Below, one piece after another: positions 8,431-28,551 of a DNA stretch of 64,000 nt. The notes under the pieces are model-generated. The model worked only from the letters and a program-made list of their open reading frames with translations, did no database searches and was not told the DNA's origin. The translations under genes were made by a program, and so were the position numbers. The stretch covers positions 119,270 to 183,269 of the forward strand of contig CAZFKS010000001.1 in NCBI GenBank assembly GCA_964519725.1. Reading direction: 5' to 3'. The DNA comes from an uncultured Gammaproteobacteria bacterium (GTDB lineage Bacteria; Patescibacteriota; Patescibacteriia; Magasanikbacterales; UBA922). Position 1 is the first letter of the stretch; each line of letters starts with the position of its first letter.

Positions 8431-8438
8431 TTTAAAAT

Positions 8439-8990
8439 TTACCTTGAAATAGTATCAAAATTTTGCAATTCTTTTCTTATATCAGCATACTTAGGCATGG
8501 CTCTAGCAACCAATTCCCAAAATTTCTTAGAATGATTTAATTCTTTTAAATGACATAGCTCATGCACGACAATATAATCCACCAAATAATCTGGCAAAAA
8601 CAAAATTTTATAATTAAAATTAAGATTCTTTTGTCCGGAACAACTCCCCCATTTAGTACTCTGTTGCTTAATACTAATGCGGTTATAAGAAAAATTATAC
8701 AATTCATTATAATGTACAACTCTTTCCTTAATTAATTTCCTAGCACGTTTAGCACAGGCATGATAATTTGTTTGTGGAAAATCCCTAGAGATTTCCTTCT
8801 TTTCTTTTTTTTGGAAAAACAAAATTTTAGACTTGATCCATTCGGCTTTTTCAGTGATGTATTTTTCCACCCCAGACAAATCAAATCCTTTTGGTACAAC
8901 CACTGAAACTCGAGCATCACAATTCACAACGATTCTTAGTCGCCGTGCTCGTTCACTTTCTTTAACCGAGTAAGCAATGCCGTGAGACAT
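8439..8990 (-). CDS. DUF45/YgjP (COG1451, WLM/M48-like) zinc metallohydrolase
   Basis: HExxH motif VVHELCHLKELNH. This family is a well-known neighbour of type I hsdR genes. Confidence 0.75.
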   Translation of the reverse strand: MSHGIAYSVKESERARRLRIVVNCDARVSVVVPKGFDLSGVEKYITEKAEWIKSKILFFQKKEKKEISRDFPQTNYHACAKRARKLIKERVVHYNELYNFSYNRISIKQQSTKWGSCSGQKNLNFNYKILFLPDYLVDYIVVHELCHLKELNHSKKFWELVARAMPKYADIRKELQNFDTISR

Positions 8991-8991
8991 G

Positions 8992-11931
8992 TTAAAACTT
9001 TTTAATGATTACATCGACTAAGCGATTGAGTAATTGATTTCGTTCAATGTCTTTGGTTAGGTTACCAAAATCTTTCCAAATTAATTCCTGCAAGGTTTGC
9101 TTGGTATTTTTAACAAACACATCTCGTTTTGATGACTCTTGCCAACCAGCATCAAGATCAGCTTCAACTCGAATCCGAACTTCTTTTACAAATTTTTGAA
9201 TCTCCTCGCCCTTTGTATCTTTTACAAACTCCTGTGAGATAACATACAGAGCATATTCTTTTAGATCAAGGCCTAATTCCTTAGCCTCTTCAGCTTTGGT
9301 TTTAATATCACTCATCAATTCCTCATAGCGACGAATTCTTTCGGCCAAATCAATCTGGTTTTGTTCAAATTGACGACGAATTGAAGTGAGACGCTCACTA
9401 AATTTAACAAACACGGGATTTTCATCCAAATTGATTGAAATTTCTTGTTTAAGCATCTTCTCCAAATTGAGCGCTTTTTCTTCTTCATCCATTCCCTTAA
9501 GTCGTTCAAGTGTATACAAATCATTCACACGCAACTCACGGAAATTTTTAGTAATTCCCTCGTAATCAATGATATTACTTTTTTGAATCAGAGCGCGAAC
9601 TTTTTCGCCATACTCTTCAAGAAGATACTTATCATCTTCACTCCGAAATTCCTTCAAAAAGGCCAAATAAAAACCGGTCACCCATTCAAATGGTCTAATT
9701 GATGGTTTCAAAAATGGATCCGGAGACAGAAACTCAAACAAACTCTTTAATTTTAAGTATTTCTCCACAAAGTATTTTTGCTTGTCCTGATTGTCAATAA
9801 AAATTTTCAAACAACGGCGTAAATTATCCATTGATGGGTCCTCAATATTTACACCAGTAAATATTTTCATGACATCATTCAACACATCGGTAAACAGATC
9901 TTTGATTCTGGCAATATCAATCATGGCTGAATCAATTATCTCTTCGTCAAAATCGAGCGCATCGTACAAATTTCGGGTAATTCCGTAATAATCAATAATC
10001 TTCCCGGCTTCTTTGTTTTTATATACCCGGTTAGTACGGGCAATGGCTTGCAAAAGATTATGGTCACGTAAAGGTTTATCCAAATACATGACTTGTTCAA
10101 TTGGTGCATCAAAACCAGTGAGCAACATGTCGCAAACCAATAAGAATTTAAGCGGTGACTTTGGGTCTTTGAATTGCTCAATAATCTGTTCACGTTCCCG
10201 TTTACTGGTGTTATAGACTTTCAAATCATCGGCATCACTATTTGGATCTCCAGGTGAATACACCACTGCCGACCATTCAGCTGGAACTAATTTATCCAGC
10301 AGTGTTTTATAAGCAGCCACGGCTTCACGATCATAGGCCACAATCTGAGCCTTAAAGCCGTTTGGTTCCACATACAGCTTGTAATGTTCCACAATATCTC
10401 GCGCCACTGCTTCCATCCGCTTGGGTAATTTTACCAAAGCTGCTTTTTTACCATATTTCTTTACCAATTCAGTTTTTTGTTTATCCGATAAATCACCAGC
10501 AATCTCTTCAAACTGTTCATCCAACTTAGTTTCATCAATCGAAAATTTAGACAGCCGCGCTTCATAGGTCATGGGAATAGTCGCGCCATCTTCAATTGCC
10601 TGTTGAATTGAATAGTAGTCTAAATAACGTTGACCTTCCCCTTCATAATTGCGGAAGGTATTGGTGTGCGCTTTATCCACAGGCGTACCAGTAAAGCCAA
10701 AGAAAAAGGCTTTCTTGAACGCATTACGCATGTTAATCCCCGATACCCCCTCGTCGCCTCGGTGTGCCTCATCGGACAGAACAATCACATTTTCATCTAA
10801 ATTTTCTACTTTGTCACCCAATTCAGAAAACTTTTGAATAGTGGTAATAAAAATCCCTTTTTCTGGTGACTGAATTTTTTCTTCTAAATCCTTGCGAGAA
10901 GTCACGCGGATAATATTCTTTCCACCGGCATTGATGAAGGTTTCAAAAATTTGGTCATCCAAATCTACCCGGTCAACCAAAATAAATACCTTAGGATTGG
11001 CTAATTCTTTATTAAAGCGCAATTTCCAGGCCGTAAAGTACATGGTCAAGGTCTTTCCTGACCCTTGGGTATGCCAAATTAAACCTTGGTGTTTTTCTTT
11101 TTTAACTACCCGGTCAACGATCTTATTAGTGGCCCGCATTTGCTGGTAACGGGCAATTTTCTTTACCACTCGCTCTTTTTCTTTTTCAAACAGAATAAAG
11201 TTTTGAATAATATCCAAGAAGTTATTCTTTGAAAGTAAAGAAATAAGGGTAACATCTAAACTAGCATCGTCTACATAATGACCTTTCCCTATCATAGACT
11301 TGGCTAGGTCATCATCACGCCACTGTAAAAAGTACTGCTTTGGTGCACCAGTCGCTCCGTAGACAGTTTTAAGGCCATCAGTGGCAATATTAAAGCAGTT
11401 AGGGATAAATAATTTACGAGCCACTTTTTCGTAACGCTTAATCTGATCAATCCCATTCTCAAAACTAACACCTTCCGAAGCAGTCGGACTTTTAGCTTCA
11501 ATATCTACTAATGGAATACCATTTAAAAAAATCAAAATATCCGGCCGAATATTTTCCGTATCACCTTCAAAATAAAATTGGTTAGTAACCACAAACTGAT
11601 TATTTTCAGGATTATCAAAATCAACTAATTTGTAATCTTGAAAATCACCAGTACTTGGATTTCGCAAATTAATCCCTTCACGCAAAGCTTTTAAAAATTC
11701 CTCATTAGAGTCAATCTTTTTAACCTCGCGAATAACATTACTAACCTCACTCACAGTTACCCCTGGATTAAGCCCCGCAATCGCCCGCTCCAAAAACGGA
11801 ACAATAATATACTCAACCTCAAGGTCGCGTAACTTAGCAAATTCCTCTGGCTTAATATACTCAAAACCAAGCTTATCCTTAATAAACTTAATAATGTAAT
11901 TTTCAATTGTGACTTGTTCGTTGAATTTCAT
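8992..11931 (-). CDS. hsdR: type I restriction enzyme R subunit
   Basis: 979 aa. N-terminal nuclease core (RPDILIF...DIEAKSP), helicase motif I HTQGSGKTLTM, DEAH box SDEAHR, motif VI QAIARTNR. Confidence 0.9.
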   Translation of the reverse strand: MKFNEQVTIENYIIKFIKDKLGFEYIKPEEFAKLRDLEVEYIIVPFLERAIAGLNPGVTVSEVSNVIREVKKIDSNEEFLKALREGINLRNPSTGDFQDYKLVDFDNPENNQFVVTNQFYFEGDTENIRPDILIFLNGIPLVDIEAKSPTASEGVSFENGIDQIKRYEKVARKLFIPNCFNIATDGLKTVYGATGAPKQYFLQWRDDDLAKSMIGKGHYVDDASLDVTLISLLSKNNFLDIIQNFILFEKEKERVVKKIARYQQMRATNKIVDRVVKKEKHQGLIWHTQGSGKTLTMYFTAWKLRFNKELANPKVFILVDRVDLDDQIFETFINAGGKNIIRVTSRKDLEEKIQSPEKGIFITTIQKFSELGDKVENLDENVIVLSDEAHRGDEGVSGINMRNAFKKAFFFGFTGTPVDKAHTNTFRNYEGEGQRYLDYYSIQQAIEDGATIPMTYEARLSKFSIDETKLDEQFEEIAGDLSDKQKTELVKKYGKKAALVKLPKRMEAVARDIVEHYKLYVEPNGFKAQIVAYDREAVAAYKTLLDKLVPAEWSAVVYSPGDPNSDADDLKVYNTSKREREQIIEQFKDPKSPLKFLLVCDMLLTGFDAPIEQVMYLDKPLRDHNLLQAIARTNRVYKNKEAGKIIDYYGITRNLYDALDFDEEIIDSAMIDIARIKDLFTDVLNDVMKIFTGVNIEDPSMDNLRRCLKIFIDNQDKQKYFVEKYLKLKSLFEFLSPDPFLKPSIRPFEWVTGFYLAFLKEFRSEDDKYLLEEYGEKVRALIQKSNIIDYEGITKNFRELRVNDLYTLERLKGMDEEEKALNLEKMLKQEISINLDENPVFVKFSERLTSIRRQFEQNQIDLAERIRRYEELMSDIKTKAEEAKELGLDLKEYALYVISQEFVKDTKGEEIQKFVKEVRIRVEADLDAGWQESSKRDVFVKNTKQTLQELIWKDFGNLTKDIERNQLLNRLVDVIIKKF

Positions 11932-11938
11932 ATATTTA

Positions 11939-12991
11939 TTAAAATGAAATTTCGCTTAGATTAATTTCTTCAATGGGCTTAATTTTTTCCTCGAGATTCT
12001 TAATTTCTAATTCGACATCAGTCTCCTCCCCTTCTTTTTGAATCGTTGCTCTGATAATTGCCCAAGTTTCAGGGTCAAAAAGTTCAGGTTTTGGTAATAA
12101 ATGCTCTCTATAAAAAGAGTTTGTATCTTGATCGTTAATTACCCAACGTACTTGGCTGTTTTCTAACAATGCATTTGCAAGTCCTTTAATTTGGGAGTCA
12201 TTAAAACTACTATACTTTGAAAGCTTACTCACTAAATCATGCGTAGTTAAAAAATTTGGACTATTGATCAATCCTTGCACTAAACTATCTTTTTCTTGCT
12301 CAACTCTCAGCTGAATTTTAATATCATGCTCAGAAAAAAATCTAGTGAGACTTTTATAAAAAAATATTTCATTCTCTGGATGAACTTTTTTCCACTCTTC
12401 CACTAAATAATCCTTAGCAAGATTTTCATCAATGGGATGCGAGTAATCTCCGTCCTTACTCAAAAGGATAAATTCTCCTTCTCCTTCGACTTCAGCCAAC
12501 AGTGCTTCCCAATTAATCTCATCACCGTAACTCCTATCCTTTTTACCTGGTGGTCGCCCCAGCCGATGTCTTTTTATAGATTGAGGTAAATATGCATCTG
12601 ATTCAATAATTTTACTCTCAGAAATAAGATCTTGAATTACCTTATCTGCCTTTAAAGTATGTTTTTGGATATCATTCCACAACTTTTTACTCAATTGTGC
12701 TTTTAGCTTGTCTAGAATATTTTGAGCACGCTTTATGTCAGTATATTCGTCATAGTGTTTACAGAATGGAGGCATTGTTAAAGTTGGTTTTGATTTAGCA
12801 AATTCCCCATAAGCCACTTTAAGTCTTACTTCACGATTTCGTTTAACCTCATCACAGACTTGGGAGGTAAGGAAAAGCTTAATTTCTCCAGACTTAATAA
12901 AATCAACTAATTTTGCAAGTTGAGTCAAATCTTCATCGTGAAAATCGTAAAAGTTGAGAAAAATATTTGAATCTATAAATAGTAATTTCAT
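11939..12991 (-). CDS. hypothetical protein with N-terminal PIN-like predicted nuclease fold, embedded between hsdS and hsdR
   Basis: LLFIDSNIF (acidic residue on beta-1), QVCDEV helix, LLSKDGD are spaced as the conserved PIN acidic positions. C-terminal about 170 aa unassigned. 4-bp overlap with hsdS. Confidence 0.35.
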   Translation of the reverse strand: MKLLFIDSNIFLNFYDFHDEDLTQLAKLVDFIKSGEIKLFLTSQVCDEVKRNREVRLKVAYGEFAKSKPTLTMPPFCKHYDEYTDIKRAQNILDKLKAQLSKKLWNDIQKHTLKADKVIQDLISESKIIESDAYLPQSIKRHRLGRPPGKKDRSYGDEINWEALLAEVEGEGEFILLSKDGDYSHPIDENLAKDYLVEEWKKVHPENEIFFYKSLTRFFSEHDIKIQLRVEQEKDSLVQGLINSPNFLTTHDLVSKLSKYSSFNDSQIKGLANALLENSQVRWVINDQDTNSFYREHLLPKPELFDPETWAIIRATIQKEGEETDVELEIKNLEEKIKPIEEINLSEISF

Positions 12992-14226
12992 ACTTGTTTT
13001 TTTCCACTCAGCAAATCTTGCATCAAGCCATTTTTGAGTAAAGTAAGTTTTGTTTTTAATTTTTTATTTACCGAAATTTTTTCATCAACAGCGGAAATAA
13101 TTTCTGCAATTTTTTCCTGCTCTTTCTTTTGTGGCAGGACAATTAAAAGTGGATTAAGTTTTTCCAAATTAATATTTTTTTGAGCGGATTGGGTAGAAAT
13201 ACTGTTAAGATACTCTTTTTGAGTTCTTAAATAATATTCCAAAAAAATCGGATTAATTTTTTCTTTACAAGAAATGCCCACCAAGCTATCAGGAAAGCAC
13301 GAATCAAACTCTAATATTCCAGTATCGCCAATGTTCGCGGCAATTGTAATAACGATAGTGCCTTTTTTAAACAATTTACTCACAGATAGACCTTTTTCGT
13401 TAAGTGTTTGGGTGTACTTTTTTATTCTTCCGTCTGAGCTGATAACATCACCAGTCTGTATAAATGGAATTTCCCCTCCATAAAATTCTGGTGCATTTCT
13501 CGGTCTATGAGAAAACTTACCCCGCTCCACAAGTGCAACGTCAGAAAGTCTTACGATATTCCACTCTTCCGGAATTTGTCCGATTTCTGTTTCCTTAAAT
13601 TTAGTATGCCCAATCCCATTTGTAAAAAGCTGCATCATTAGCCCGTGCTTGAGTTTTTCCGCAGATTTAATCACTTCATGCGTTTTAGTAATATCTTCAT
13701 CCACCGTCCTCAAAATCCCAGCAATCTTTTGTTGTTCTTTGATTGGGGGTAGTAAAACTTCTATACTTTCAACTTGGCTGGAGCTTATATTTTTTTGAGC
13801 CGCACCAATAAAATACTTCTCAAGTTTTGATATAAAATCTTTGTACAAAAATACTTGAAATGTAAAATCAGGATCTAAATCCTTATCTTTAAAGACAACA
13901 CGTCCTACGCGTTGATTTAAAATTGCTGGAAGATATTTCTTGTCAATTCGCGCTACTTTACCAAGTTCGCCAGTCATGCCCATCAAGATATCATTTTCTC
14001 TTAAGTGTACAGATTCATTGTTAGCATACCCATCTTCAGATATATACACAAAATCATTAGCCACAAAGTCTCCTTTGCCAACATTACCAATACGCACAAG
14101 CGGAATACCATCATTTACATAATTTGACGCGTTAAACGCATTGCCTCCTTGAAGCTTTATATGCCTTCCAATCGGAAGTAATTCCCACCCCTTAGGGATA
14201 TTTTGCTGTATCATGTTGGTTTTCAT
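12988..14226 (-). CDS. hsdS: type I restriction-modification specificity subunit (two target-recognition domains)
   Basis: 412 aa. Repeated TRD plus conserved spacer helices (LLPPIKEQQKIAGIL... and VLPQKKEQEKIAEII...) typical of HsdS. Confidence 0.85.
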   Translation of the reverse strand: MKTNMIQQNIPKGWELLPIGRHIKLQGGNAFNASNYVNDGIPLVRIGNVGKGDFVANDFVYISEDGYANNESVHLRENDILMGMTGELGKVARIDKKYLPAILNQRVGRVVFKDKDLDPDFTFQVFLYKDFISKLEKYFIGAAQKNISSSQVESIEVLLPPIKEQQKIAGILRTVDEDITKTHEVIKSAEKLKHGLMMQLFTNGIGHTKFKETEIGQIPEEWNIVRLSDVALVERGKFSHRPRNAPEFYGGEIPFIQTGDVISSDGRIKKYTQTLNEKGLSVSKLFKKGTIVITIAANIGDTGILEFDSCFPDSLVGISCKEKINPIFLEYYLRTQKEYLNSISTQSAQKNINLEKLNPLLIVLPQKKEQEKIAEIISAVDEKISVNKKLKTKLTLLKNGLMQDLLSGKKQV

Positions 14227-15128
14227 ACTATGTTATTTGAAACCCATTTAATTGAACCAGCAATAGAAGCGTTCAAAACTTGTAGACAAATTTTTGCAGT
14301 ATGAATATCTGGTGAAAATTTTGAAATACTTTGTTCGTAAGGATGGATATAATTGCGAAAATCTCGCAGAGCGTGTCCAAATTTCTTTACATCCAATCCA
14401 ATCACGCCGAGTTCGTGAGCCACGTCAATAAGACCAGCAAGCTTCCAATCAGGTAACGGTAAAACTTTTCCAGTTTTGTCTTTCGGACTTGCATTAGCTG
14501 ATTGAAATTTTTGAGGATGTTTTACTGCGATACCAAATAAAATTCCTTCCAGCGTACTGCCAGCCATAATAACAGAAGATAAAGGCGACTTGTATTGTAG
14601 ACATTGGCGAGATTCTAGAATACGCTCTTTTAATATACTCTCTATTGCCGCATCAAGACCGAGCTTGGAAATGTCATTTTCATCAAAATCTTTTTTTAAA
14701 AACTCTTCTTCAGAATCAATTGATGTATTTTTTGTATCTATTATTGGGCCGACAGACTCCTTTAAATACTTTAGAATAGGGTCACGGCCTTGAAAAGCAA
14801 CACTCATGTTCTCCATAGACAAAATATCGTTCATCGCTTTTGCAGCCATCTCCAATTTAGCTCTATCTGCCTTGTACTCCCTTATATCAACAAGCCTCAA
14901 AATCACTTTTTCAAGGTCATTCAATGTTAATTGTTTGAGCAGTTCAAGTACCCACCATTTTCGAGTACTACCATCATGGGTCACATTTATATTTATATTT
15001 TGAAAAAAACGAGTTAAATAACCTGAAGATCTATATTCCGGGTACTTTTGCGCCACATCTCCACAAATAAAATCAGCAAGGGCATCAAGTGTCGCGGGAT
15101 CTAATTTATTTTTTAAAAATACCGCCAT
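14223..15128 (-). CDS. hypothetical protein, HEPN-like (Rx6H motif) Abi/DUF4145-type candidate embedded between hsdM and hsdS
   Basis: C-terminal HALRDFRNYIHPYEQ contains an R-x6-H motif in a helical context. The position equals that of known HEPN/Abi insertions in type I R-M operons. Otherwise no strong motif. Confidence 0.3.
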   Translation of the reverse strand: MAVFLKNKLDPATLDALADFICGDVAQKYPEYRSSGYLTRFFQNININVTHDGSTRKWWVLELLKQLTLNDLEKVILRLVDIREYKADRAKLEMAAKAMNDILSMENMSVAFQGRDPILKYLKESVGPIIDTKNTSIDSEEEFLKKDFDENDISKLGLDAAIESILKERILESRQCLQYKSPLSSVIMAGSTLEGILFGIAVKHPQKFQSANASPKDKTGKVLPLPDWKLAGLIDVAHELGVIGLDVKKFGHALRDFRNYIHPYEQSISKFSPDIHTAKICLQVLNASIAGSIKWVSNNIV

Positions 15129-15129
15129 A

Positions 15130-16821
15130 CTAATATTTCAATTCCTTGAGATATTCGTCCACCTTTTTATCAATAATATCCCGCTCTTTTTCAATTTCCT
15201 TTACCTGAGCCCACACGGTTTTTACATCAATGTTTTCTTCTTCATCAGCATTTTCCACATAGCGACGAACATTGAGGTTGTATTCGTTTTCTGCTAATTC
15301 TTTGGTGTCAATAACGCGGGCGTATTTTTCGATATCACGGTAATTTTCAAAGGCGGAGACAATTTTTTCAATATCAACCTTACGCAAACGGTTTTGATTT
15401 TTTCCTTCTTCGTAATCTTGTTCGGCGTCAACAATGAGGATTTTATTTTTGTGATCGACTGGCTTATTTTTGTTAAAAATTACAATTGCAGCCGGAATAC
15501 CTGTTCCGTAAAAAAGTTTAGCTGGGAGTGCGATGATGGCTTCAATTAAGTCATTTTTAATGAGTTGTTCACGAATACGGCCTTCGGCCCCGCCACGAAA
15601 AAGCACGCCATGAGGAAGTACAATGCCAGCGCGACCATTTTCATTCATTGATTTAACTAAATGCATGACAAAGGCATAGTCCGCATTTTTGGCTGGCGGC
15701 ATTTCATATCCAGCGGCTCGTTTATAACTATCTGATTTAAATTTTTCGTAAGCGTAGTCCTTAATCGAGTACGGTGGATTACTAATGCAGATGTCGAATG
15801 TTTTGAGTGTACCATCTGGGTTGAGGAACTTCGGGTCAGCCAGTGTGTCCCCGCGTTGAATGTCCGCACTATCCAGTCCATGCAAGAACATGTTGATTTT
15901 GGCAATGGCGTAGGTGCCAATATTAATTTCTTGTCCGTAGAGGTAAAGTGAACGGGCCTTTTTTTCACCAGCTTCATTCTTTAAATGGTGATATGCTTCC
16001 AACAAAAAACCACCTGAACCAGCGGCCATGTCGTAAATATGGTCTTTCTCATGTGGCTTTAAAATATTAATAATTACACGTTCAACTTCGCGCGGTGTGT
16101 AGAAACTACCACCTTTTTTACCACCATCAGCAGCAAATTGTTGGATGAGGTATTCATAAGCATCACCTAAAAGGTCGGTACTAATGTAGTTGTCGCCAAA
16201 ATTATGCTTGGAAAAATGATTGATTAGTTTTTGCAAAATTTCATTGGGAAATTTGTCTTTATTGGCAAAATCCAGATCGTCAAAAATACGGTCCAGTTTT
16301 GGACTATTGGCAGTAGTGAGGTCATCAAAAATAGTATTGAGTTTTTGGCCAATACCTTCGGCTTGCTGTTGAATGACTTCCCAACGACAATGACTCGGGA
16401 CTTGAAAACGATGGTTATAATCAGCCCGAGCCACTTCTTCATCATGATATTCTTCTAGGACTTTTTTATATTCTTCGTCCCACACATCACTAATGCGCTT
16501 GTAAAAAAGAAGACCGAAAATATATTTTTTGTAATCAGCACTATCAATGCGGTCGCGCAAAATATCCGCACTGCTCCACAAAAATTGCTTGAGTTGAGTG
16601 AGGTTCATTTTTCCCTCGTCGTTGGTCAGCGAGCTGCCCAAGTCTTTGACAATACTTTTGTCATTGGCGATTCGTTCAATATCCTCGGGCTTATATTTAC
16701 GGTCTTTGCGAGGACCAACCCGTAAAGGGGTTATGAGCCCTTTTTTCTCCCAGTTGCGGAGAGTGTCTTGATGAATGCCAAAAATGGTTGAGACTTCGCT
16801 AATACTGAGTAGATTGGCCAT
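15130..16821 (-). CDS. hsdM: type I restriction-modification N6-adenine DNA methyltransferase M subunit with N-terminal MerR-type HTH extension
   Basis: NPPY motif ISNPPYS, SAM motif DMAAGSGGFL, HsdM N-domain (LWSSADILR). First about 50 aa LSISEVSTIFGIHQDTLRNWEKKGLITP is an HTH_17/MerR-like helix-turn-helix. Confidence 0.9.
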   Translation of the reverse strand: MANLLSISEVSTIFGIHQDTLRNWEKKGLITPLRVGPRKDRKYKPEDIERIANDKSIVKDLGSSLTNDEGKMNLTQLKQFLWSSADILRDRIDSADYKKYIFGLLFYKRISDVWDEEYKKVLEEYHDEEVARADYNHRFQVPSHCRWEVIQQQAEGIGQKLNTIFDDLTTANSPKLDRIFDDLDFANKDKFPNEILQKLINHFSKHNFGDNYISTDLLGDAYEYLIQQFAADGGKKGGSFYTPREVERVIINILKPHEKDHIYDMAAGSGGFLLEAYHHLKNEAGEKKARSLYLYGQEINIGTYAIAKINMFLHGLDSADIQRGDTLADPKFLNPDGTLKTFDICISNPPYSIKDYAYEKFKSDSYKRAAGYEMPPAKNADYAFVMHLVKSMNENGRAGIVLPHGVLFRGGAEGRIREQLIKNDLIEAIIALPAKLFYGTGIPAAIVIFNKNKPVDHKNKILIVDAEQDYEEGKNQNRLRKVDIEKIVSAFENYRDIEKYARVIDTKELAENEYNLNVRRYVENADEEENIDVKTVWAQVKEIEKERDIIDKKVDEYLKELKY

Positions 16822-22521: not shown

Positions 22522-24312
22522 TTAGCCTTTCCGACCAGCGCGCACGCGGTCAGATTCTTTGAGGTATTGTTTACGGAGACGGACGCTTTCTGGAGTAATT
22601 TCCAAGTATTCATCCTCGGCCATAATTTCAAGGCCGCGTTCCAAAGTCAGATCAAGTGGTGGGATCAGGAGAAGAGCGTCATCAGTACCAGAAGCGCGCA
22701 TGTTGGTGAGTTGTTTACCCTTAATTGGGTTAACCACCATGTCTTGGCCTTTACTAACATTACCAATGACCATACCTTCGTACACTTCAGTATTCGCCCC
22801 AATGTACAAAGTACCACGGTCTTGGAGGTTAAAGAGTGAGTAACCAAGCGCTTTACCAGTTTCCATTGAAACCATTGAGCCAACATCACGTTTTTCAATC
22901 TCACCAGCAAATGGACGGAAATCAAGCACGCGTGAGCACAAAATCCCTTCACCGCGAGTGTCCATCACAAATTGGCCGCGGTAACCCAGTAAACCACGAG
23001 TTGGGATTTCAAAAATCATCCGAGTTTGACCATCAGCTTGGCGCATGTCTACCATGCGGCCTTTGCGTTTACCTAATTTTTCAATCACGGTTCCAGCAAA
23101 TTCATCAGGCACATCAACGGTGGCTTCTTCGTATGGTTCAGATTTTACCCCATCAATGTCTTTGATAATTACTTGTGGTTGTGAAACTTGAATTTCAAAA
23201 CCTTCGCGGCGCATGTTTTCGAGTAAAATCGCAACGTGGAGTTCGCCGCGACCAAAAACTTTATAGTGATCAGACTCAGAAAAATCAATTTTTAAACCCA
23301 CGTTAACTTCCAGTTCTTTTTCCAAACGTTCGCGGATCTGACTGTTAGTTACAAACTTACCTTCTTGACCAGCAAATGGTGAAGAGTTCACCAAAAAGTT
23401 CAAAGAAATAGTTGGTTCATCAACCCGGATGGCTGGGAGTGGTTCTTGGTCAGCGTTATTACAAATAGTTTCCCCAATATCAATGTCAGCGACCCCAGCA
23501 ATCATGGCAATATCACCGGCACTGGCCTCGGTATCTTCGATCCGTTCCATGCCTTTGAAAGTAAAAATTTTGGTAATTGAACCAGGACGAGTTTCACCAG
23601 TTGGTTTTTTAACAATTACTTTGTCACCAACTCTAATGGTCCCTTCGTACACCCGACCAACTGCTAAGCGGCCAACATAATTGTCATAACCCAAATTAAA
23701 CGGCTGCATTCGGAATGGTGCTGTCACATTGTTTGGTGCTGGTGGAACCAGTTTCAAAACCGTATCAAGAAGTGGAGTCAGGTCTTTAGCTTCGTCTTCC
23801 ATTTTAAGTTTAGCCACACCTTGACGCCCAATTGCGTACACAGTAGTGAAATCAAGCTGGGCATCATTGGCGCCGAGATCCATGAAGAGTTCTAACACTT
23901 GATCATGAGCGCGAACAACGTCAGCGGCCGGCTTATCGATTTTATTCAAAACCACAATTGGCTTAAGGCCAAGTTCAAGAGATTTTTTCAAAACAAATTT
24001 GGTTTGTGGCATTGGACCTTCCTGGGCATCCACAATCAAAAGCACTGAGTCAATTGACCGAAGCACGCGCTCAACTTCAGAACCAAAATCCGCGTGACCT
24101 GGGGTGTCCACAATGTTAATTTTTGTGTCTTTATAATAGACACTAGCATTTTTCGAGTAAATCGTAATACCACGCTCCCGTTCCAGGGCGTTTGAGTCCA
24201 TTGAGGCTTGAGACTCTTCTGACACCATCCCGGTTTGGCGCATAATCGCGTCAGTCAGGGTGGTTTTACCATGGTCTACGTGGGCAATAATCGCAATATT
24301 TCGGATTTCCAT
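22522..24312 (-). CDS. typA: translational GTPase TypA/BipA
   Basis: [29 protein letters not shown]-motifs. 596 aa with EF-G-like domains. Confidence 0.9.
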
Positions 24313-24377
24313 AGGAAGATAAGAATGCGCGGATTATACGCATTTTTAGCCATTTTGTCAATGGTTTGATCTACCTC

Positions 24378-25550: not shown

Positions 25551-26099
25551 ATGAATTACCACCCGTCAATTCAATTAAAGGAGACTGTTTTTGGAAAAAG
25601 CATTTTCACCAGTTCTGACCTACGTCCTGGGACTTTTTTGATTGAAATGACTGGTCAAACTTTTCGCCTAGAAGATATTCCCCCTCTTAGCGAACGCCAG
25701 ATTATGGATCACTATATTCAGTGTTCAGATGATCTCTTTCTTGGCCCCTCTGGTTTATTTGACGATTATTTTAACCACTCTTGCGACCCAAACGCTGGTC
25801 TTTTTTTTAATAATGGCCGAATTTTGGTTAAAACCATAAAACGTGTGCCAGCTAATACAGAAATTTGTTTTGATTACTCCACCGTCATGACCATTGACCC
25901 TCTTGTCATGCAGTGCTCATGTCGATCAAAACTTTGCCGAGGTGAGGTTTTACATTTTCGCACCTTACCAGAACGAACCCGCAATCGCTATATCGCACTT
26001 GGTATTGTGCCGCAATTTTCCATTGCGTCATGTGCTGTTTCAAATAAAAAAGTCAGCCAAAAAATATCACTTTTTCAGCCGACTTTAGTGACTGCCTAG
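25551..26099 (+). CDS. SET-domain protein (putative protein-lysine methyltransferase) with post-SET Cys cluster
   Basis: NHSCDPN and ICFDY SET signature motifs. Post-SET C-x-C-x4-C (CSCRSKLC). Confidence 0.8.
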   Translation: MNYHPSIQLKETVFGKSIFTSSDLRPGTFLIEMTGQTFRLEDIPPLSERQIMDHYIQCSDDLFLGPSGLFDDYFNHSCDPNAGLFFNNGRILVKTIKRVPANTEICFDYSTVMTIDPLVMQCSCRSKLCRGEVLHFRTLPERTRNRYIALGIVPQFSIASCAVSNKKVSQKISLFQPTLVTA

Positions 26100-26100
26100 T

Positions 26101-27852
26101 TTAGATTTTTTCAGAAATAAAACCACCAACTTGTAATTCCCACAATTTGCGGTACAGGCCGCCGTTTTTGGTAATTAATTCTGCGTGCGAGCCAGTTTCT
26201 TGTACCTCACCATTATCCACGACAATAATGCGATCCATACGCATAATGGTTGACAGGCGGTGGGCAATCACAACAACAGTTTTACCGGCCATTAATTTAT
26301 CCAGGGCATCTTGAATCATGCGTTCAGATTCTGAGTCGAGACTTGAGGTTGCTTCATCGAGTAGTAAAATTGGCGCGTTGCGCAAAATCGCGCGCGCAAT
26401 GGCCACGCGTTGGCGCTCACCACCAGACAATTTTACCCCGCGCTCGCCCACCAAAGTATTGTACTTGTCAGGCAAAGATTCAATAAATTCATGACAATGG
26501 GCACGCTTGGCCGCTTCAACCACCTCGGCTTCAGTGGCCTCTGGTCGCGCGTAGCGAATATTATCGAGGAGTGACCGGTGAAATAAGACTGGATCTTGCG
26601 GCACATAACTCATTGTTTGCCACAAACTTTCTTGCGTAATTGTTTTAATGTCTTGGCCACCAATTTTTACCGCCCCTGACAGCGTGTCATATTGGCGCAT
26701 AATTAATTTGAGGAGGGTCGATTTTCCAGCGCCACTTGGACCAACTAGAGCCACACGCTCCCCGGCTTTAATTTCCAAACTTAGACCATGAATAAGTGGT
26801 TTTACTTTGTCATAACCAAAGCGCACATTTTCCCACTCAATCGTGGCCGGCGCAGTTTGCCAGTCTTTGGCATTTTTCGCATCCTGAATTGCGTGCGGAG
26901 TTTCGAGAATCTCGGTCATTTCATTGGCATAGGCCATGTCCGTGTACGTGTCACGAATCAACCGACCCAGGTCCCAAATGCGGAGGAATAAAGTCAGCAA
27001 ATACGCCTGGATCAACGCAAAGTCACCCAGAGTGATTAAACCTTTTTTCCATAACACCAAAGCCGCACCCATTAATCCAATTTCGAGCGCGTGCATTAAA
27101 ATTGCTTGACCAGCATCAAACCAACCATCTAGATTATAGGCTCGCCATTGGGCCTTACTTACCTCTTCATTACCGTTGGCATAATCAGCCACTTCCCGAC
27201 CATAACCATTGAAAAATTTAAGGGCTGATTGGTTGGTAATAGTGTCAGCTAAACGCGCTGTTTGTTTGGATTCTTTTTCACTACGGTCTAAATCAAGTGG
27301 CATTTTCTTGCGAATCAACCAATAATTTAAAGTACCAAAAATCACAAACCACACTGACATGATCAGTGGTAAATACCAACTGCGAGTAGCTAAGATTACC
27401 AAGATAAAAACAATCGTAATTAAAATTTGCGAAAAATTCCAAATTACACGGTCAGAAATATTAGCAAAAGCACCCACATAACGATTCACCCGCTTAACCA
27501 GTGCCCCCACAAAATTACTATTGAAAAAATTTACTGAGTGTTTATGCAAATACTGAAAACAAAAATTATCAATATCGGCTAATAATTTTGGCTGAAGCTT
27601 AATCCAAATAAAGGCCGCTGTGCGCCACAATACCCAGTCGAGTAAATAAAAGAGGCCAGTCAGGGCTAAAATCTGAAACAAAGCCCGCATCTCGAGACCA
27701 GTATTCAGGCCATCAAATAAACGCTTGTAGTAGAGGGGTGGTACTAAGTTTACAAAATTAGCCACCACCGCGGTTACAATCACAACAAAAACCAGCTTCC
27801 GCTTTTTGGCAAAGCACCAGTAAGTTTTGAGGGTAGTTTTTGTGTAATTCAT
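26101..27852 (-). CDS. ABC transporter, fused permease/ATP-binding (MsbA-like exporter, no peptidase domain)
   Basis: Six N-terminal TM helices. Walker A GPSGAGKST, signature LSGGERQRVAIARA, Walker B LLLDEATS. Confidence 0.9.
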   Translation of the reverse strand: MNYTKTTLKTYWCFAKKRKLVFVVIVTAVVANFVNLVPPLYYKRLFDGLNTGLEMRALFQILALTGLFYLLDWVLWRTAAFIWIKLQPKLLADIDNFCFQYLHKHSVNFFNSNFVGALVKRVNRYVGAFANISDRVIWNFSQILITIVFILVILATRSWYLPLIMSVWFVIFGTLNYWLIRKKMPLDLDRSEKESKQTARLADTITNQSALKFFNGYGREVADYANGNEEVSKAQWRAYNLDGWFDAGQAILMHALEIGLMGAALVLWKKGLITLGDFALIQAYLLTLFLRIWDLGRLIRDTYTDMAYANEMTEILETPHAIQDAKNAKDWQTAPATIEWENVRFGYDKVKPLIHGLSLEIKAGERVALVGPSGAGKSTLLKLIMRQYDTLSGAVKIGGQDIKTITQESLWQTMSYVPQDPVLFHRSLLDNIRYARPEATEAEVVEAAKRAHCHEFIESLPDKYNTLVGERGVKLSGGERQRVAIARAILRNAPILLLDEATSSLDSESERMIQDALDKLMAGKTVVVIAHRLSTIMRMDRIIVVDNGEVQETGSHAELITKNGGLYRKLWELQVGGFISEKI

Positions 27853-27865
27853 ATTTTAGATAAAA

Positions 27866-27888
27866 AAACCGCAGGTTGACTGCGGTTT
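27866..27888 (-). terminator. Rho-independent terminator between the Cys-rich micro-ORF and the ABC transporter gene
   Basis: Perfect 9-bp stem aaaccgcag/ctgcggttt with loop gttga. A 7-T run follows on the minus strand. Confidence 0.5.
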
Positions 27889-27893
27889 AAGGT

Positions 27894-28016
27894 TTATTCA
27901 TCGTCTGAGCCAAAGCCATCGTAGCTCATTTTGCAGCCACAACAGGACTCACAGGTGTTGCAGTCAGGGCACACCATGTCTTCGATCACTGATTTTGTGC
28001 AATTATCGCAGTTCAT
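27894..28016 (-). CDS. 40-aa Cys-rich micro-protein (8 Cys; mini zinc-ribbon/metal-binding-like), not in the ORF table (<60 aa)
   Basis: Minus-strand ATG 28014-28016 to TAA 27894-27896 gives MNCDNCTKSVIEDMVCPDCNTCESCCGCKMSYDGFGSDDE. It has its own consensus promoter and a terminator on each side. Confidence 0.45.
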   Translation of the reverse strand: MNCDNCTKSVIEDMVCPDCNTCESCCGCKMSYDGFGSDDE

Positions 28017-28028
28017 AAGGGTTTATTT

Positions 28029-28057
28029 AGTGCGCGGATTATACCAGCCAAACCCCA
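28029..28057 (-). promoter_or_regulatory. perfect consensus sigma70 promoter TTGACA-17-TATAAT driving the Cys-rich micro-ORF
   Basis: Minus strand reads ttgaca ttttggggtttggctgg tataat, with the ATG 13 nt downstream. Confidence 0.5.
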
Positions 28058-28084
28058 AAATGTCAATAAGCCTTCGGGGCAATA

Positions 28085-28116
28085 ATAAAAAACTCGGTCT
28101 ATAGCCGAGTTTTTTA
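28085..28116 (-). terminator. Rho-independent terminator ending the ATP synthase operon (after atpC)
   Basis: aaaaaactcgg-tctatag-ccgagtttttt. GC stem flanked by A and T runs. Confidence 0.55.
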
Positions 28117-28119
28117 TTA

Positions 28120-28551
28120 TTAATTTTGAATTTTGCCAATATCGCGGTACTTTTTACCAACCCTGAGACGTGCCAATTCTTTTTCCATTTTGGCAATAAT
28201 CAGGGCGTATTCCTCTTCTTCCAAGGTTTGTTTTTGACTCATGAGTTCCACGGCGCGGGCGCGGGCCGCTTCGGCGCGAGCGACATCAATGTGTTCAGCC
28301 CGTTCAGCAGTTTCAGCGAGCACATACACCACACTGTTTGGGCGAATTTCCACTACCCCGCCAGACACAGCCAGGTCAGTTTCTACTCCGCCTTTTTTTA
28401 CCCGAAGTTCACCAGCTTCAACCAGTGAAACCAATGGTACATGGTGTGGCAACACAGTGATTTCACCGGTAGTAGTAGGAATACTAACCGAGTCAGCCGT
28501 ACTATCGTAGGCAACTCCGTCAGGGGTAACAATTTTTACAGTTAATTCCAT
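28120..28551 (-). CDS. atpC: F0F1 ATP synthase subunit epsilon
   Basis: 143 aa. Position after atpD. N-terminal beta-sandwich plus C-terminal helices (LEEEEYALIIAKMEKELARL). Confidence 0.85.
   Translation of the reverse strand: MELTVKIVTPDGVAYDSTADSVSIPTTTGEITVLPHHVPLVSLVEAGELRVKKGGVETDLAVSGGVVEIRPNSVVYVLAETAERAEHIDVARAEAARARAVELMSQKQTLEEEEYALIIAKMEKELARLRVGKKYRDIGKIQN

What the first reader, a model, noticed from the sequence alone, without database searches (positions are those of the whole stretch)
27853..28119. Orphan, strongly promoted 40-aa Cys-rich micro-protein between the ATP synthase operon and an ABC exporter
A 41-codon minus-strand ORF encodes MNCDNCTKSVIEDMVCPDCNTCESCCGCKMSYDGFGSDDE. 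It has 8 Cys in 40 aa, a CxxC-x9-CPxC zinc-ribbon-like core, an extra CESCCGC cluster and an acidic tail. It is below the 60-aa cutoff of the ORF track. It sits on a perfect consensus TTGACA-17-TATAAT promoter. It is insulated by intrinsic terminators on both sides: the atpC terminator upstream and a perfect 9-bp hairpin plus T-run downstream. This makes it an independent, probably highly expressed unit. The next gene on the same strand is an MsbA-type ABC exporter, which allows a peptide-plus-exporter reading (secreted Cys-rich peptide or RiPP-like precursor). An alternative reading is a cytoplasmic metal-binding micro-protein. It has no SD, like most genes here.
Basis: seen in the sequence. 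Interest (0 to 1): 0.72.

Follow-up and report, generated by a model that had tools for sequence, protein, structure and literature searches.

The report
Conserved eight-cysteine micro-protein gene
The 40-codon reading frame is a real, conserved gene of Candidatus Magasanikbacteria for a tiny acidic protein with eight fixed cysteines that most likely binds metal ions; it belongs to a family that protein catalogues almost entirely miss, and there is no good evidence that it is an exported or modified peptide.

Summary
Window 28016..27894 (-) encodes MNCDNCTKSVIEDMVCPDCNTCESCCGCKMSYDGFGSDDE. It lies behind a 12/12 TTGACA-17-TGgTATAAT promoter, one of only two in the 64 kb, and between two intrinsic terminators.

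It is not an orphan. The genome is a Candidatus Magasanikbacteria (CPR) genome. Thirteen other species or contigs carry a 27-43 aa homologue on the same strand, mostly downstream of the atp operon.
- M1, C3, C6, C16, C19, C22, C25 and C26 are invariant; C28 is present in 13 of 14.
- Every Cys column mixes TGT and TGC about 50:50.
- dN/dS is 0.06 for the closest pair.
- The promoter and terminator are conserved, with compensatory stem changes.
- There is no conserved RNA fold and no Rfam, Pfam or NCBIfam match.

Searches of 5.8 and 1.8 billion proteins returned only four 'hypothetical' members.

Best reading: a standalone, probably strongly expressed, cytoplasmic, acidic Cys8 metal-thiolate micro-protein. 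It combines a zinc-ribbon-like N-terminus with a CxxCxxCxxCCxC cluster. The metal and the role are unproven.

The peptide-plus-exporter idea is weak:
- 13 loci have the ABC gene without the peptide.
- 5 of the 12 family loci anchored on atpC, plus L202, have the peptide without the ABC gene.
- There is no leader, no maturase and no C39 domain.

The parts
28081..28121 (-). atpC intrinsic terminator (perfect 17-nt inverted repeat: CTCGG/CCGAG core, A6/T6 extension). It insulates the micro-gene from the atp operon.
   Evidence: The equivalent hairpin in L002 and L003 has a different stem sequence (GCCTCCAC..GGGGGC) at the same place.
28038..28066 (-). Sigma-70-type promoter TTGACA-17-TATAAT with an extended -10 TG (28046-28045).
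   Evidence: the only 12/12 match in 25.5-34 kb; one of two 12/12 matches in 64 kb; scores at least 10/12 in 10 of 13 homologous loci and 12/12 in L004, L008 and L014.
28017..28037 (-). Discriminator CCGCGCA plus a short AT-rich 5' UTR (CTAAATAAACCCTT) without SD. The transcription start is inferred near 28031.
   Evidence: Sequence read. The identical discriminator CCGCGCA follows the typA promoter. CACTAAATAA is conserved in L002 and L003. The start position is inferred, not measured.
27894..28016 (-). Micro-protein gene: 40 codons plus TAA, MNCDNCTKSVIEDMVCPDCNTCESCCGCKMSYDGFGSDDE. It has a Cys8 framework and a net acidic charge (9 D+E against 2 K+R).
   Evidence: Searches give the ORF. Searches give the homologues. 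Searches show purifying selection and mixed TGT/TGC at every Cys column.
27859..27888 (-). Intrinsic terminator of the micro-gene: 9-bp stem AAACCGCAG/CTGCGGTTT, loop TCAAC, T-run. It starts 5 nt after the stop codon.
   Evidence: In L002 and L003 the stem is CCGTCC/GGACGG in place of CCGCAG/CTGCGG. A terminator follows the stop codon in 12 of 13 loci.
26101..27852 (-). ABCB-type half-transporter (ABC_membrane + ABC_tran, 583 aa). It is a neighbour and possibly read-through co-transcribed, but it is not shown to be a functional partner.
   Evidence: domains, no C39 peptidase; no NCBIfam family reaches its cut-off; the closest solved half-transporter is NaAtm1 at 315 bits. The ATG at 27852 lies 13 nt after the hairpin, and no promoter was found.

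Best explanation
The locus is an independently transcribed, monocistronic gene for a 40-aa, strongly acidic, cytoplasmic micro-protein.

Its eight invariant cysteines form a compact metal-thiolate centre. The N-terminal pair of knuckles (C3-x2-C6 ... C16-P-x-C19) has zinc-ribbon geometry. It runs directly into a C19-x2-C22-x2-C25-C26-x-C28 cluster. The peptide is therefore expected to hold about two soft metal ions, Zn(II) being the default guess.

The metals could sit in two Cys4 sites, possibly cross-braced, or in a bridged metallothionein-like cluster.

The consensus promoter, the absence of any operator-like palindrome and the tight terminator suggest constitutive, high expression. The likeliest role is a metal buffer or sink, or a small metal-stabilised protein-binding module.

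Shown:
- It is a coding gene under purifying selection.
- The Cys framework is invariant.
- The promoter and terminator architecture is conserved.
- The family is confined to Magasanikbacteria-like CPR genomes among the loci examined.

Inferred:
- Translation and abundance.
- Metal binding, metal identity and stoichiometry.
- Cytoplasmic location.
- Physiological role.
For: Coding and selection:
- tblastn and a motif scan find 12 homologues among 80 atpC-anchored species-level loci, all on the atpC strand, all starting M-x-C (MA-x-C in L014 and P0003), 27-43 aa. A further member is P0003/L202.
- Invariant M1, C3, C6, C16, C19, C22, C25 and C26; C28 in 12 of 13.
- L002 against L003 gives dN/dS 0.06. 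Window against L002 gives pS 0.98 and pN 0.11. Differences by codon position are 6/3/22.
- Each Cys column uses TGT and TGC about equally across 14 members.

Expression unit:
- The promoter scores at least 10/12 in 10 of 13 loci, and a terminator follows the stop in 12 of 13. Stem changes are compensatory.
- The only inverted repeats in the interval are the two terminators, so no operator is visible.

Metal-site character:
- Zn_ribbon_3 (PF13248) matches 2 of 13 members, best E 4.8e-4.
- The best PDB profile hits are two-zinc ZZ fingers of CBP/p300 (E 0.025), which align C3/C6, C16/C19 and C25/C28 with their three CxxC pairs. Weaker hits are bL32, TFIIE and rubredoxin knuckles.
- Cys density is 8 in 26 residues; all members are acidic, with D+E 4-16 and K+R 0-3.
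- In other Magasanikbacteria the same genomic slot holds other Cys8-type acidic micro-ORFs, for example MGCECDIEPCVACGVCEECGCDCGE. They share the C-x2-C-x2-C-x2-C-(x)-C-x-C core. Cys count kept while spacing drifts is the pattern expected of metallothionein-like proteins.
Against: - There is no experimental evidence of translation or metal binding.
- The window peptide itself matches no Pfam or NCBIfam model even at E<=10.
- The AlphaFold2 model has mean pLDDT 53 and is uninformative.
- Motif-based zinc predictions for micro-proteins are unreliable. In Haloferax volcanii only 9 of 14 purified C(P)XCG micro-proteins held zinc, and AlphaFold2 could not tell which (PMC11241148).
- Four Cys within seven residues (C22-C28) is tight for an independent Zn(Cys)4 site.
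- The CxxCxxCxxC run could instead ligate an Fe-S cluster.
- An unregulated consensus promoter is unusual for a detoxifying metallothionein, which is normally metal-induced.
Confidence: 0.6

Rival explanations
1. Miniature redox protein. The cysteines ligate iron, either a rubredoxin- or desulforedoxin-like Fe(Cys)4 centre or a [4Fe-4S]/[3Fe-4S] cluster on the CxxCxxCxxC run. The peptide would then act as a very small electron carrier or oxidative-stress protein in an anaerobic CPR bacterium.
For: - The C-P-x-C knuckle and the strong acidity are rubredoxin-like.
- Marginal PDB profile hits to rubredoxin (E 0.7), NdhI (E 0.67) and HdrA (E 8.9) cover residues 9-30.
- Adjacent Cys ligands to one iron exist in desulforedoxin (my own knowledge).
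- The gene lies next to energy-conversion operons: atp in most loci, and NuoCD-like plus antiporter genes in L202 and L203.
Against: - No hit to any Fer4 or rubredoxin Pfam model at E<=10.
- The spacing is CX2CX2CX2C, not the canonical CX2CX2CX3CP. That spacing was seen once among tabulated ferredoxin subtypes (PMC8928951).
- The knuckles are 9 residues apart, against roughly 29 in rubredoxin.
- No redox partner gene is consistently adjacent.
Confidence: 0.15
2. Exported Cys-rich peptide. It is made in excess from the strong promoter. The downstream ABCB-type exporter, expressed at a lower level by terminator read-through, would secrete it as a metal chelator, signal or toxin, with or without bound metal.
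For: - Whenever both genes are in a locus, the peptide gene is immediately upstream of the ABC gene (8 of 8). This includes L006 and L025, where another gene separates it from atpC.
- In the window, L002 and L004 the ABC ATG follows the terminator T-run with no consensus promoter. This resembles structural-gene/leaky-terminator/transporter operons.
- The closest solved half-transporter is the heavy-metal and thiol-conjugate exporter NaAtm1, at 315 bits against 275 for Sav1866.
Against: - 13 of the 20 loci with the ABC orthologue have no Cys-ORF. In L023, L037 and L075 the atpC-ABC gap is only 18-113 nt.
- Five of the 12 family loci anchored on atpC, L202, and all 7 variant loci lack an ABC gene within about 5 kb. 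There the next gene is a UvrD-like helicase or something else.
- There is no leader or double-glycine motif, and the first invariant Cys is residue 3.
- The exporter has no C39 peptidase domain and reaches no specific NCBIfam cut-off.
- No maturase is nearby.
- L008 and L025 have their own promoter before the ABC gene.
- Strong acidity and CxxC/CPxC knuckles are atypical of secreted bacteriocins.
Confidence: 0.12
3. Cis-regulatory leader peptide. Translation of the Cys-rich ORF senses cysteine or Cys-tRNA supply and controls read-through of the terminator into the ABC gene by attenuation.
For: - 8 Cys codons in 40.
- The terminator starts 5 nt after the stop codon and ends 13 nt before the ABC start.
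- No separate ABC promoter was found in the window.
Against: - The exact Cys spacing, not merely Cys richness, is invariant.
- The distance from stop codon to terminator varies from 0 to 29 nt.
- The same unit, including its terminator, precedes helicase genes that have their own promoters (L014, L202).
- There is no conserved alternative antiterminator pairing. The consensus RNA structure energy is -0.98 kcal/mol.
- A 6-nt complementarity between codons 2-4 and the terminator arm, read in the window sequence, has no counterpart in the L002 sequence.
Confidence: 0.04
4. Non-coding small RNA. The promoter and terminator pair brackets an sRNA, and the ORF is incidental.
For: - A compact transcript of about 170 nt with a strong promoter and terminator.
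- The MFE z-score is -3.4 with the terminator and -2.3 without it.
Against: - Substitutions show three-base periodicity, and dN/dS is 0.06.
- Cys codons are synonymously scrambled.
- No Rfam match reaches a gathering score.
- There is essentially no conserved secondary structure across 12 homologues.
Confidence: 0.02

Closest known systems
C(P)XCG zinc-finger micro-proteins of Haloferax volcanii (e.g. HVO_2753, HVO_0758)
   Same: - Standalone proteins under 70 aa built almost only of CxxC/CPxC knuckles, some with four such motifs.
- Often acidic.
- The function is usually regulatory or stress-related and hard to predict.
- Metal occupancy has to be measured (PMC11241148).
   Different: - Archaeal, with no detectable sequence relationship.
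- They use separated C(P)XCG pairs. This family instead fuses the second knuckle to a contiguous CxxCxxCC-x-C run, giving 8 Cys in 26 residues.
Bacterial metallothioneins (SmtA/BmtA family PF02069; MymT; metagenome-mined MT-like peptides)
   Same: - Small, Cys-dense (20-30%) proteins.
- Cys number is conserved while spacing drifts among relatives.
- Prokaryotic examples are badly under-annotated. A 2022 UniProt retrieval found only six prokaryotic MT entries, yet mined candidates conferred metal resistance (PMC11705764).
   Different: - No match to PF02069 or any MT model at E<=10.
- No His ligands.
- The family has a strict, invariant framework with zinc-ribbon-type knuckles.
- The promoter is consensus and apparently unregulated, rather than controlled by an SmtB/ArsR-type operator.
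ZZ-type zinc finger (CBP/p300; PDB 1TOT, 2N1A, 6DS6)
   Same: It is the best, though marginal, profile match in the PDB (E 0.025). Three successive Cys pairs align, which suggests a cross-braced two-zinc arrangement.
   Different: - A eukaryotic domain of about 50 residues.
- Its fourth ligand pair, per my own recollection of the ZZ fold, lies downstream and is His/Cys. Here the remaining ligands (C22, C26) are interleaved.
- The E-value is not significant for a Cys-biased query, so this is not a member.
Short zinc ribbons (Pfam Zn_ribbon_3 PF13248 / zinc_ribbon_2-type) and bacterial zinc-ribbon micro-proteins such as anti-TRAP (recalled from memory)
   Same: - C-x2-C, then 7-10 residues, then C-(P)-x-C at the N-terminus.
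- 2 of 13 members hit PF13248.
- Anti-TRAP shows that a roughly 50-aa zinc-ribbon protein can act purely as a protein-binding regulator.
   Different: - Four extra invariant Cys follow immediately after the ribbon.
- The window peptide itself gives no HMM hit.
- No partner is known.
Desulforedoxin / rubredoxin
   Same: - Very small acidic proteins with an Fe(Cys)4 site.
- CPxC knuckles.
- Desulforedoxin uses two adjacent Cys as ligands (my own knowledge).
   Different: - Different spacing, eight Cys rather than four, and no HMM similarity.

Membership tests
Zinc ribbon (Pfam Zn_ribbon_3 PF13248 and similar) | Two CxxC/CPxC knuckles separated by a short beta-hairpin of about 7-12 residues | tested here: met
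   C3-x2-C6-x7..9-C16-x2-C19 is invariant in 14 members.
Zinc ribbon (Pfam Zn_ribbon_3 PF13248 and similar) | Significant match to the family HMM | tested here: inconclusive
   The window peptide has 0 hits at E<=10. 2 of 13 homologues hit PF13248, best E 4.8e-4.
Zinc ribbon (Pfam Zn_ribbon_3 PF13248 and similar) | One Zn(II) bound tetrahedrally by the four Cys | not testable with these tools
   This needs ICP-MS, ESI-MS or NMR. The AlphaFold2 model has pLDDT 53.
Bacterial metallothionein SmtA/BmtA (PF02069) | HMM match and a Cys9His2-type ligand set | tested here: not met
   No Pfam or NCBIfam hit at E<=10. There is no His in the core.
Metallothionein in the operational sense | Low mass, high Cys content (about 15-30%) and metal-thiolate clusters | tested here: inconclusive
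   The Cys content criterion is met: 8 of 40 (20%) to 8 of 27 (30%). Cluster formation cannot be tested here.
RiPP precursor with dedicated exporter | N-terminal leader (or conserved follower) recognised by a maturase, followed by a core peptide | tested here: not met
   The invariant Cys framework starts at residue 3. The C-terminal tail varies from 0 to 17 aa and is absent in L006 and L022.
RiPP precursor with dedicated exporter | Adjacent maturase gene (radical SAM, LanM/LanBC, YcaO and others) | tested here: not met
   The neighbours are atpC, an ABC half-transporter, a SET-domain protein, an MBL-fold protein and typA. In relatives they are a helicase, SulP-like or NuoCD-like genes.
RiPP precursor with dedicated exporter | Exporter with a C39 peptidase domain, or consistent co-occurrence with the precursor | tested here: not met
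   The exporter has only ABC_membrane+ABC_tran. 13 loci have ABC without the peptide, and 5 of the 12 atpC-anchored family loci plus L202 have the peptide without ABC.
Leader-peptide transcription attenuator | Alternative terminator/antiterminator structures coupled to ribosome position, conserved with the regulated gene | tested here: not met
   The stop-to-terminator distance is 0-29 nt and the downstream genes differ. The consensus structure energy is -0.98 kcal/mol.
4Fe-4S ferredoxin (Fer4) | CX2CX2CX3CP motif and HMM match | tested here: not met
   The spacing is CX2CX2CX2CC. There is no Fer4 hit. Only marginal PDB hits to NdhI and HdrA, E 0.67-8.9.
ZZ-type zinc finger | Cross-braced two-zinc fold with C-x2-C ... 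C-x2-C ... C-x2-C ... H/C-x-H/C, and a significant HMM match | tested here: inconclusive
   E 0.025 against CBP ZZ, with three Cys pairs aligned. The fourth pair is not in the ZZ position. No Pfam ZZ hit.
Known small RNA (Rfam) | Match at or above a family's gathering score, or a conserved structure with covariation | tested here: not met
   The best Rfam hits are terminator look-alikes below their gathering scores. No conserved fold.

The most novel reading that the evidence does not exclude
The peptide is a ribosomally encoded, unmodified thiolate chelator that works with the adjacent Atm1-like ABCB half-transporter. The abundant peptide would capture soft metals, or an Fe-S or persulfide species, in the cytoplasm. 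The exporter, made in small amounts by terminator read-through, would expel the loaded peptide. That would be a bacterial, gene-encoded analogue of the phytochelatin/HMT1 or glutathione/Atm1 systems, in a lineage that probably lacks glutathione. Alternatively, it could be the smallest natural Fe-S or rubredoxin-like redox protein, with members as short as 27 aa.
Probability: 0.1. Interest if true: 0.75.

Novelty: new variant of a known kind. Interest (0 to 1): 0.45.

Why it matters
CPR/Patescibacteria have tiny genomes in which a large share of genes have no assigned function, and genes under 50 codons are mostly not called at all.

This is a micro-gene with one of the two best promoters in 64 kb. 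It has a perfectly conserved Cys8 framework across genomes whose atpC is only about 50% identical. Yet catalogues of billions of proteins hold only four 'hypothetical' entries for it.

If it is a metal buffer or a small redox or regulatory module, it would be one of the few candidate metal-handling proteins in this lineage. It would also be a compact natural scaffold of 27-40 aa for metal-thiolate chemistry.

The result also shows that short-ORF families can be validated from synteny-anchored genomic DNA even when protein databases are blind to them.

Tried and rejected
1. Peptide alone against the 5.8-billion protein index: no candidates.
3. My single metagenome scan used a Cys-codon-only pattern (TGY...). 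TGC/TGT microsatellites and poly-Cys repeats swamped it, and no family member was recovered. This was a design error: non-Cys positions such as ATG, CCN or GAR should have been included. As a result there is no sample of genomic contexts unbiased by the atpC anchor.
4. AlphaFold2 on the 5-sequence alignment gave mean pLDDT 53, so I ran no fold search.
5. An HMM search of 1.84 billion representatives found only the family's own three clusters, plus two unrelated multi-zinc-ribbon proteins.
6. A broader alignment (A4) added nothing in the third homologue search.
7. Rfam gave only sub-threshold terminator look-alikes: Trp_leader 32 bits against a gathering score of 41, rimP, ohsC and isrK.
8. Pfam on the variant micro-ORFs gave nothing.
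9. Literature searches for Patescibacteria with metallothionein, small proteins or zinc found no description of this family.
10. I considered and rejected three other ideas:
   - A ribosomal protein: the peptide is acidic.
   - A type I toxin: there is no hydrophobic segment.
   - An antisense ORF at 27931..28104 (+): the codon-position pattern fits the minus-strand frame.
Full report
**1. What is in the sequence**

- The minus strand of window 28016..27894 carries an ATG-initiated ORF of 40 codons plus TAA. It encodes MNCDNCTKSVIEDMVCPDCNTCESCCGCKMSYDGFGSDDE.
- Only two in-frame codons lie between the upstream stop and the ATG.
- The ORF lies in the 267-nt interval between atpC (28551..28120; PF02823 and PF00401) and a 583-aa ABC_membrane+ABC_tran half-transporter (27852..26101).
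- Upstream is TTGACA-17-TATAAT (28066..28038) with a TG two bases before the -10. It is the only 12/12 site in 25.5-34 kb. It is one of two in the whole window; the other precedes typA at 24361 and is followed by the same discriminator, CCGCGCA.
- The only inverted repeats in the interval are the atpC terminator (28081-28097/28105-28121) and a perfect 9-bp hairpin with a T-run (27888..27866) that starts 5 nt after the stop codon.
- SD-like motifs are nearly absent from this genome, with 2 of 36 long ORFs carrying one. The missing SD is therefore normal here.

**2. Source organism and relatives**

- The atpC protein occurs identically on one short Logan contig, where the small ORF was not called as a gene.
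- A scan of species-representative genomes with atpC returned 80 loci. Those with a meaningful taxon name are mostly Candidatus Magasanikbacteria or other Patescibacteria, and the best two have 90-91% atpC identity. The window is therefore from a CPR bacterium.

**3. The ORF is a conserved protein-coding gene**

- tblastn of the peptide against these loci, plus a motif scan, found 12 homologues. They are in L002, L003, L004, L006, L008, L009, L012, L014, L021, L022, L025 and L059.
- All are on the atpC strand, all start M-x-C (MA-x-C in L014), and all are 27-43 aa.
- A profile search of 5.8 billion proteins returned only four entries. All are 'hypothetical' or unnamed, and one of them (P0003) is new.
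- An HMM search of 1.84 billion representatives returned only the family's own clusters.
- The alignment shows invariant M1, C3, C6, C16, C19, C22, C25 and C26, with C28 in 12 of 13. There is a frequent E/D-D pair before C16, a frequent P17 and a variable acidic tail.
- L002 against L003 gives dN/dS 0.06. Window against L002 gives pS 0.98 and pN 0.11. Differences fall 6/3/22 on codon positions 1/2/3.
- Every Cys column uses TGT and TGC in roughly equal numbers across 14 members.
- A consensus RNA fold over 12 homologous ORFs has an energy of -0.98 kcal/mol and shows no meaningful covariation.
- No Rfam family reaches its gathering score.
- The sRNA rival is effectively refuted.

**4. The expression unit is conserved**

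- The promoter scores at least 10/12 in 10 of 13 loci, and 12/12 in the window, L004, L008 and L014.
- The 5' UTR is short and AT-rich.
- An intrinsic terminator follows the stop codon in 12 of 13 loci.
- Between the window and L002/L003, both terminators keep their place but change stem sequence in a compensatory way.
- No operator-like palindrome overlaps the promoter.
- This supports an independent, probably constitutive and strongly transcribed monocistronic gene. That is an inference from sequence only.

**5. Genomic context and the exporter hypothesis**

- The ancestral order appears to be atp operon, then the micro-gene, then (ABC exporter), then further genes including a UvrD-like helicase and typA.
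- Whenever the peptide and the ABC orthologue share a locus, they are adjacent (8 of 8). This includes L006 and L025, where another gene has been inserted between atpC and the peptide.
- The ABC orthologue lies downstream of atpC in 20 of 80 loci, and 13 of these have no Cys-rich ORF. In L037, L075 and L023 the atpC-ABC gaps are only 18-113 nt.
- Conversely, L003, L012, L014, L021 and L059 have the peptide but no ABC gene within about 5 kb. L202 and L203 show none within their roughly 5-kb contigs. There the peptide lies between NuoCD-like plus antiporter genes and the helicase.
- The exporter has no C39 peptidase domain and reaches no NCBIfam cut-off.
- Its closest solved half-transporter is the heavy-metal exporter NaAtm1, at 315 bits.
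- The peptide has no leader, and no maturase is nearby.
- The one point in favour of coupling concerns the window, L002 and L004. There the ABC ATG follows the terminator T-run directly with no consensus promoter, so read-through from the peptide promoter may drive it. L008 and L025, in contrast, have their own TGnTATAAT/TATACT promoter before the ABC gene.
- I therefore rate the exported-peptide reading at about 0.12 and the leader-peptide attenuator at about 0.04. For the attenuator, the stop-to-terminator distance varies from 0 to 29 nt, the downstream genes differ, and there is no antiterminator.

**6. What the protein most likely is**

- The first four Cys have classical short zinc-ribbon spacing. 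Two homologues match Pfam Zn_ribbon_3 at E 4.8e-4, although the window peptide matches nothing at E<=10.
- A profile search of the PDB gives only marginal hits. The best are the two-zinc ZZ fingers of CBP/p300 (E 0.025), which align C3/C6, C16/C19 and C25/C28 with three CxxC pairs. Knuckles of bL32, TFIIE and rubredoxin follow, and then the Fe-S motifs of NdhI and HdrA.
- Eight Cys lie within 26 residues, and within 24 in the 27-aa members. Net charge is strongly negative in every member.
- In other Magasanikbacteria the same slot, with its own promoter, holds other Cys-rich acidic micro-ORFs:
  - 25-aa MGCECDIxPCVxCGxCxxCGCxCxE in L007, L010 and L043;
  - longer CC/CxC-rich forms in L033, L045 and L056;
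  - a 47-aa CxC-rich form in L042.
- Apart from L042, which was not aligned, these share the core C-x2-C-x2-C-x2-C-(x)-C-x-C.
- Cys number is retained while spacing drifts. That is metallothionein-like behaviour, although no known MT model matches.
- My best explanation, at about 0.6, is a cytoplasmic Cys8 metal-thiolate micro-protein. It would bind about two soft metal ions, with Zn as the default, and serve as a metal buffer or as a metal-stabilised binding module.
- An iron or Fe-S redox version is the main rival, at about 0.15.
- Caveats:
  - AlphaFold2 was uninformative, with pLDDT 53.
  - In Haloferax only 9 of 14 purified C(P)XCG micro-proteins held zinc (PMC11241148).

**7. Novelty and verdict**

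- The kind of thing is known: small Cys-rich metal-binding or zinc-finger micro-proteins.
- This family has no curated model and essentially no database presence, and I found no literature describing it.
- I class it as a new variant of a known kind and score interest at 0.45. It is a solid, conserved, probably abundant micro-protein of a poorly understood lineage, but it has no demonstrated function and nothing mechanistically unprecedented so far.

**8. Limits**

- All homologues except P0003 were found through atpC-anchored loci. Their distribution and synteny are therefore biased toward that neighbourhood.
- My one metagenome scan was wasted on a low-complexity pattern.

Noticed in passing
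window 24333-24361 (-): This is the second and only other 12/12 TTGACA-17-TATAAT promoter in the window. It lies in front of typA/bipA (22522..24312). It is followed by exactly the same G+C-rich discriminator, CCGCGCA, as the micro-protein promoter, and by a roughly 20-nt SD-less leader.
   Followed up: partly
L007:5517-5594, L010:7198-7275, L043:5452-5529 (+): A second conserved micro-ORF type of 25 aa, MGCECDIxPCVxCGxCxxCGCxCxE, also has 8 Cys. It lies downstream of atpC in other Magasanikbacteria, behind TTGCAT-17-TATACT promoters. It shares the C-x2-C-x2-C-x2-C-x-C-x-C core with the window family.
   Followed up: partly
L033:7381-7509, L045:698-826, L056:5511-5660, L042:5973-6116 (+): These are further Cys-rich acidic micro-ORFs of 42-49 aa in the same slot. 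They carry CC, CxC and CGC runs; L042 looks metallothionein-like with 13 Cys. None matches any Pfam model.
   Followed up: partly
L046:4725-4904 (-), L068:9526-9675 (-): Conserved 49-59 aa Cys/His-rich ORFs (MTHYxCxGECxGxSETPVSCGxESCSLHNHPLxECNC...) occur in Peribacteria and Peregrinibacteria loci near atpC. The L046 member has no Pfam match at E<=10; L068 was not scanned.
   Followed up: partly
window, whole: The genome is essentially SD-less. Only 2 of 36 ORFs of at least 200 aa have GGAG, GAGG or AGGA at -20..-4, and the upstream regions are AT-rich.
   Followed up: partly
window 27852-27866; L002:5678-5733: The ABC exporter start codon lies 13 nt after the micro-gene terminator hairpin and no consensus promoter was found. 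Its expression may therefore depend on terminator read-through. L008 and L025 have their own extended -10 promoters instead, and in L025 the -10 sits 6 nt before the ATG, which suggests a leaderless mRNA.
   Followed up: partly
L202:1-3877, L203:85-3749: In the contigs carrying P0003, the micro-gene follows Proton_antipo_M and a fused Complex1_30kDa+49kDa (NuoCD-like or group-4 hydrogenase-like) gene rather than atpC.
   Followed up: no
window 25551-26099 (+): A SET-domain protein (PF00856, E 1.7e-12) is encoded convergently with the ABC exporter in this CPR genome, with a terminator-like hairpin (minus strand) at 26049-26086 near their 3' ends.
   Followed up: no
window 8001-16000: G+C drops to 0.34-0.38, against about 0.42-0.45 elsewhere, and GC skew is stronger and more negative. 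This may be an acquired island.
   Followed up: no
window ~58491 (-): An 11/12 promoter (TTGACT-17-TATAAT) is followed by sequence that looks like a tRNA 5' end (GGGCGTCATCGTCTAGTGGCTAGGACAGG). I did not check it with a tRNA scan.
   Followed up: no
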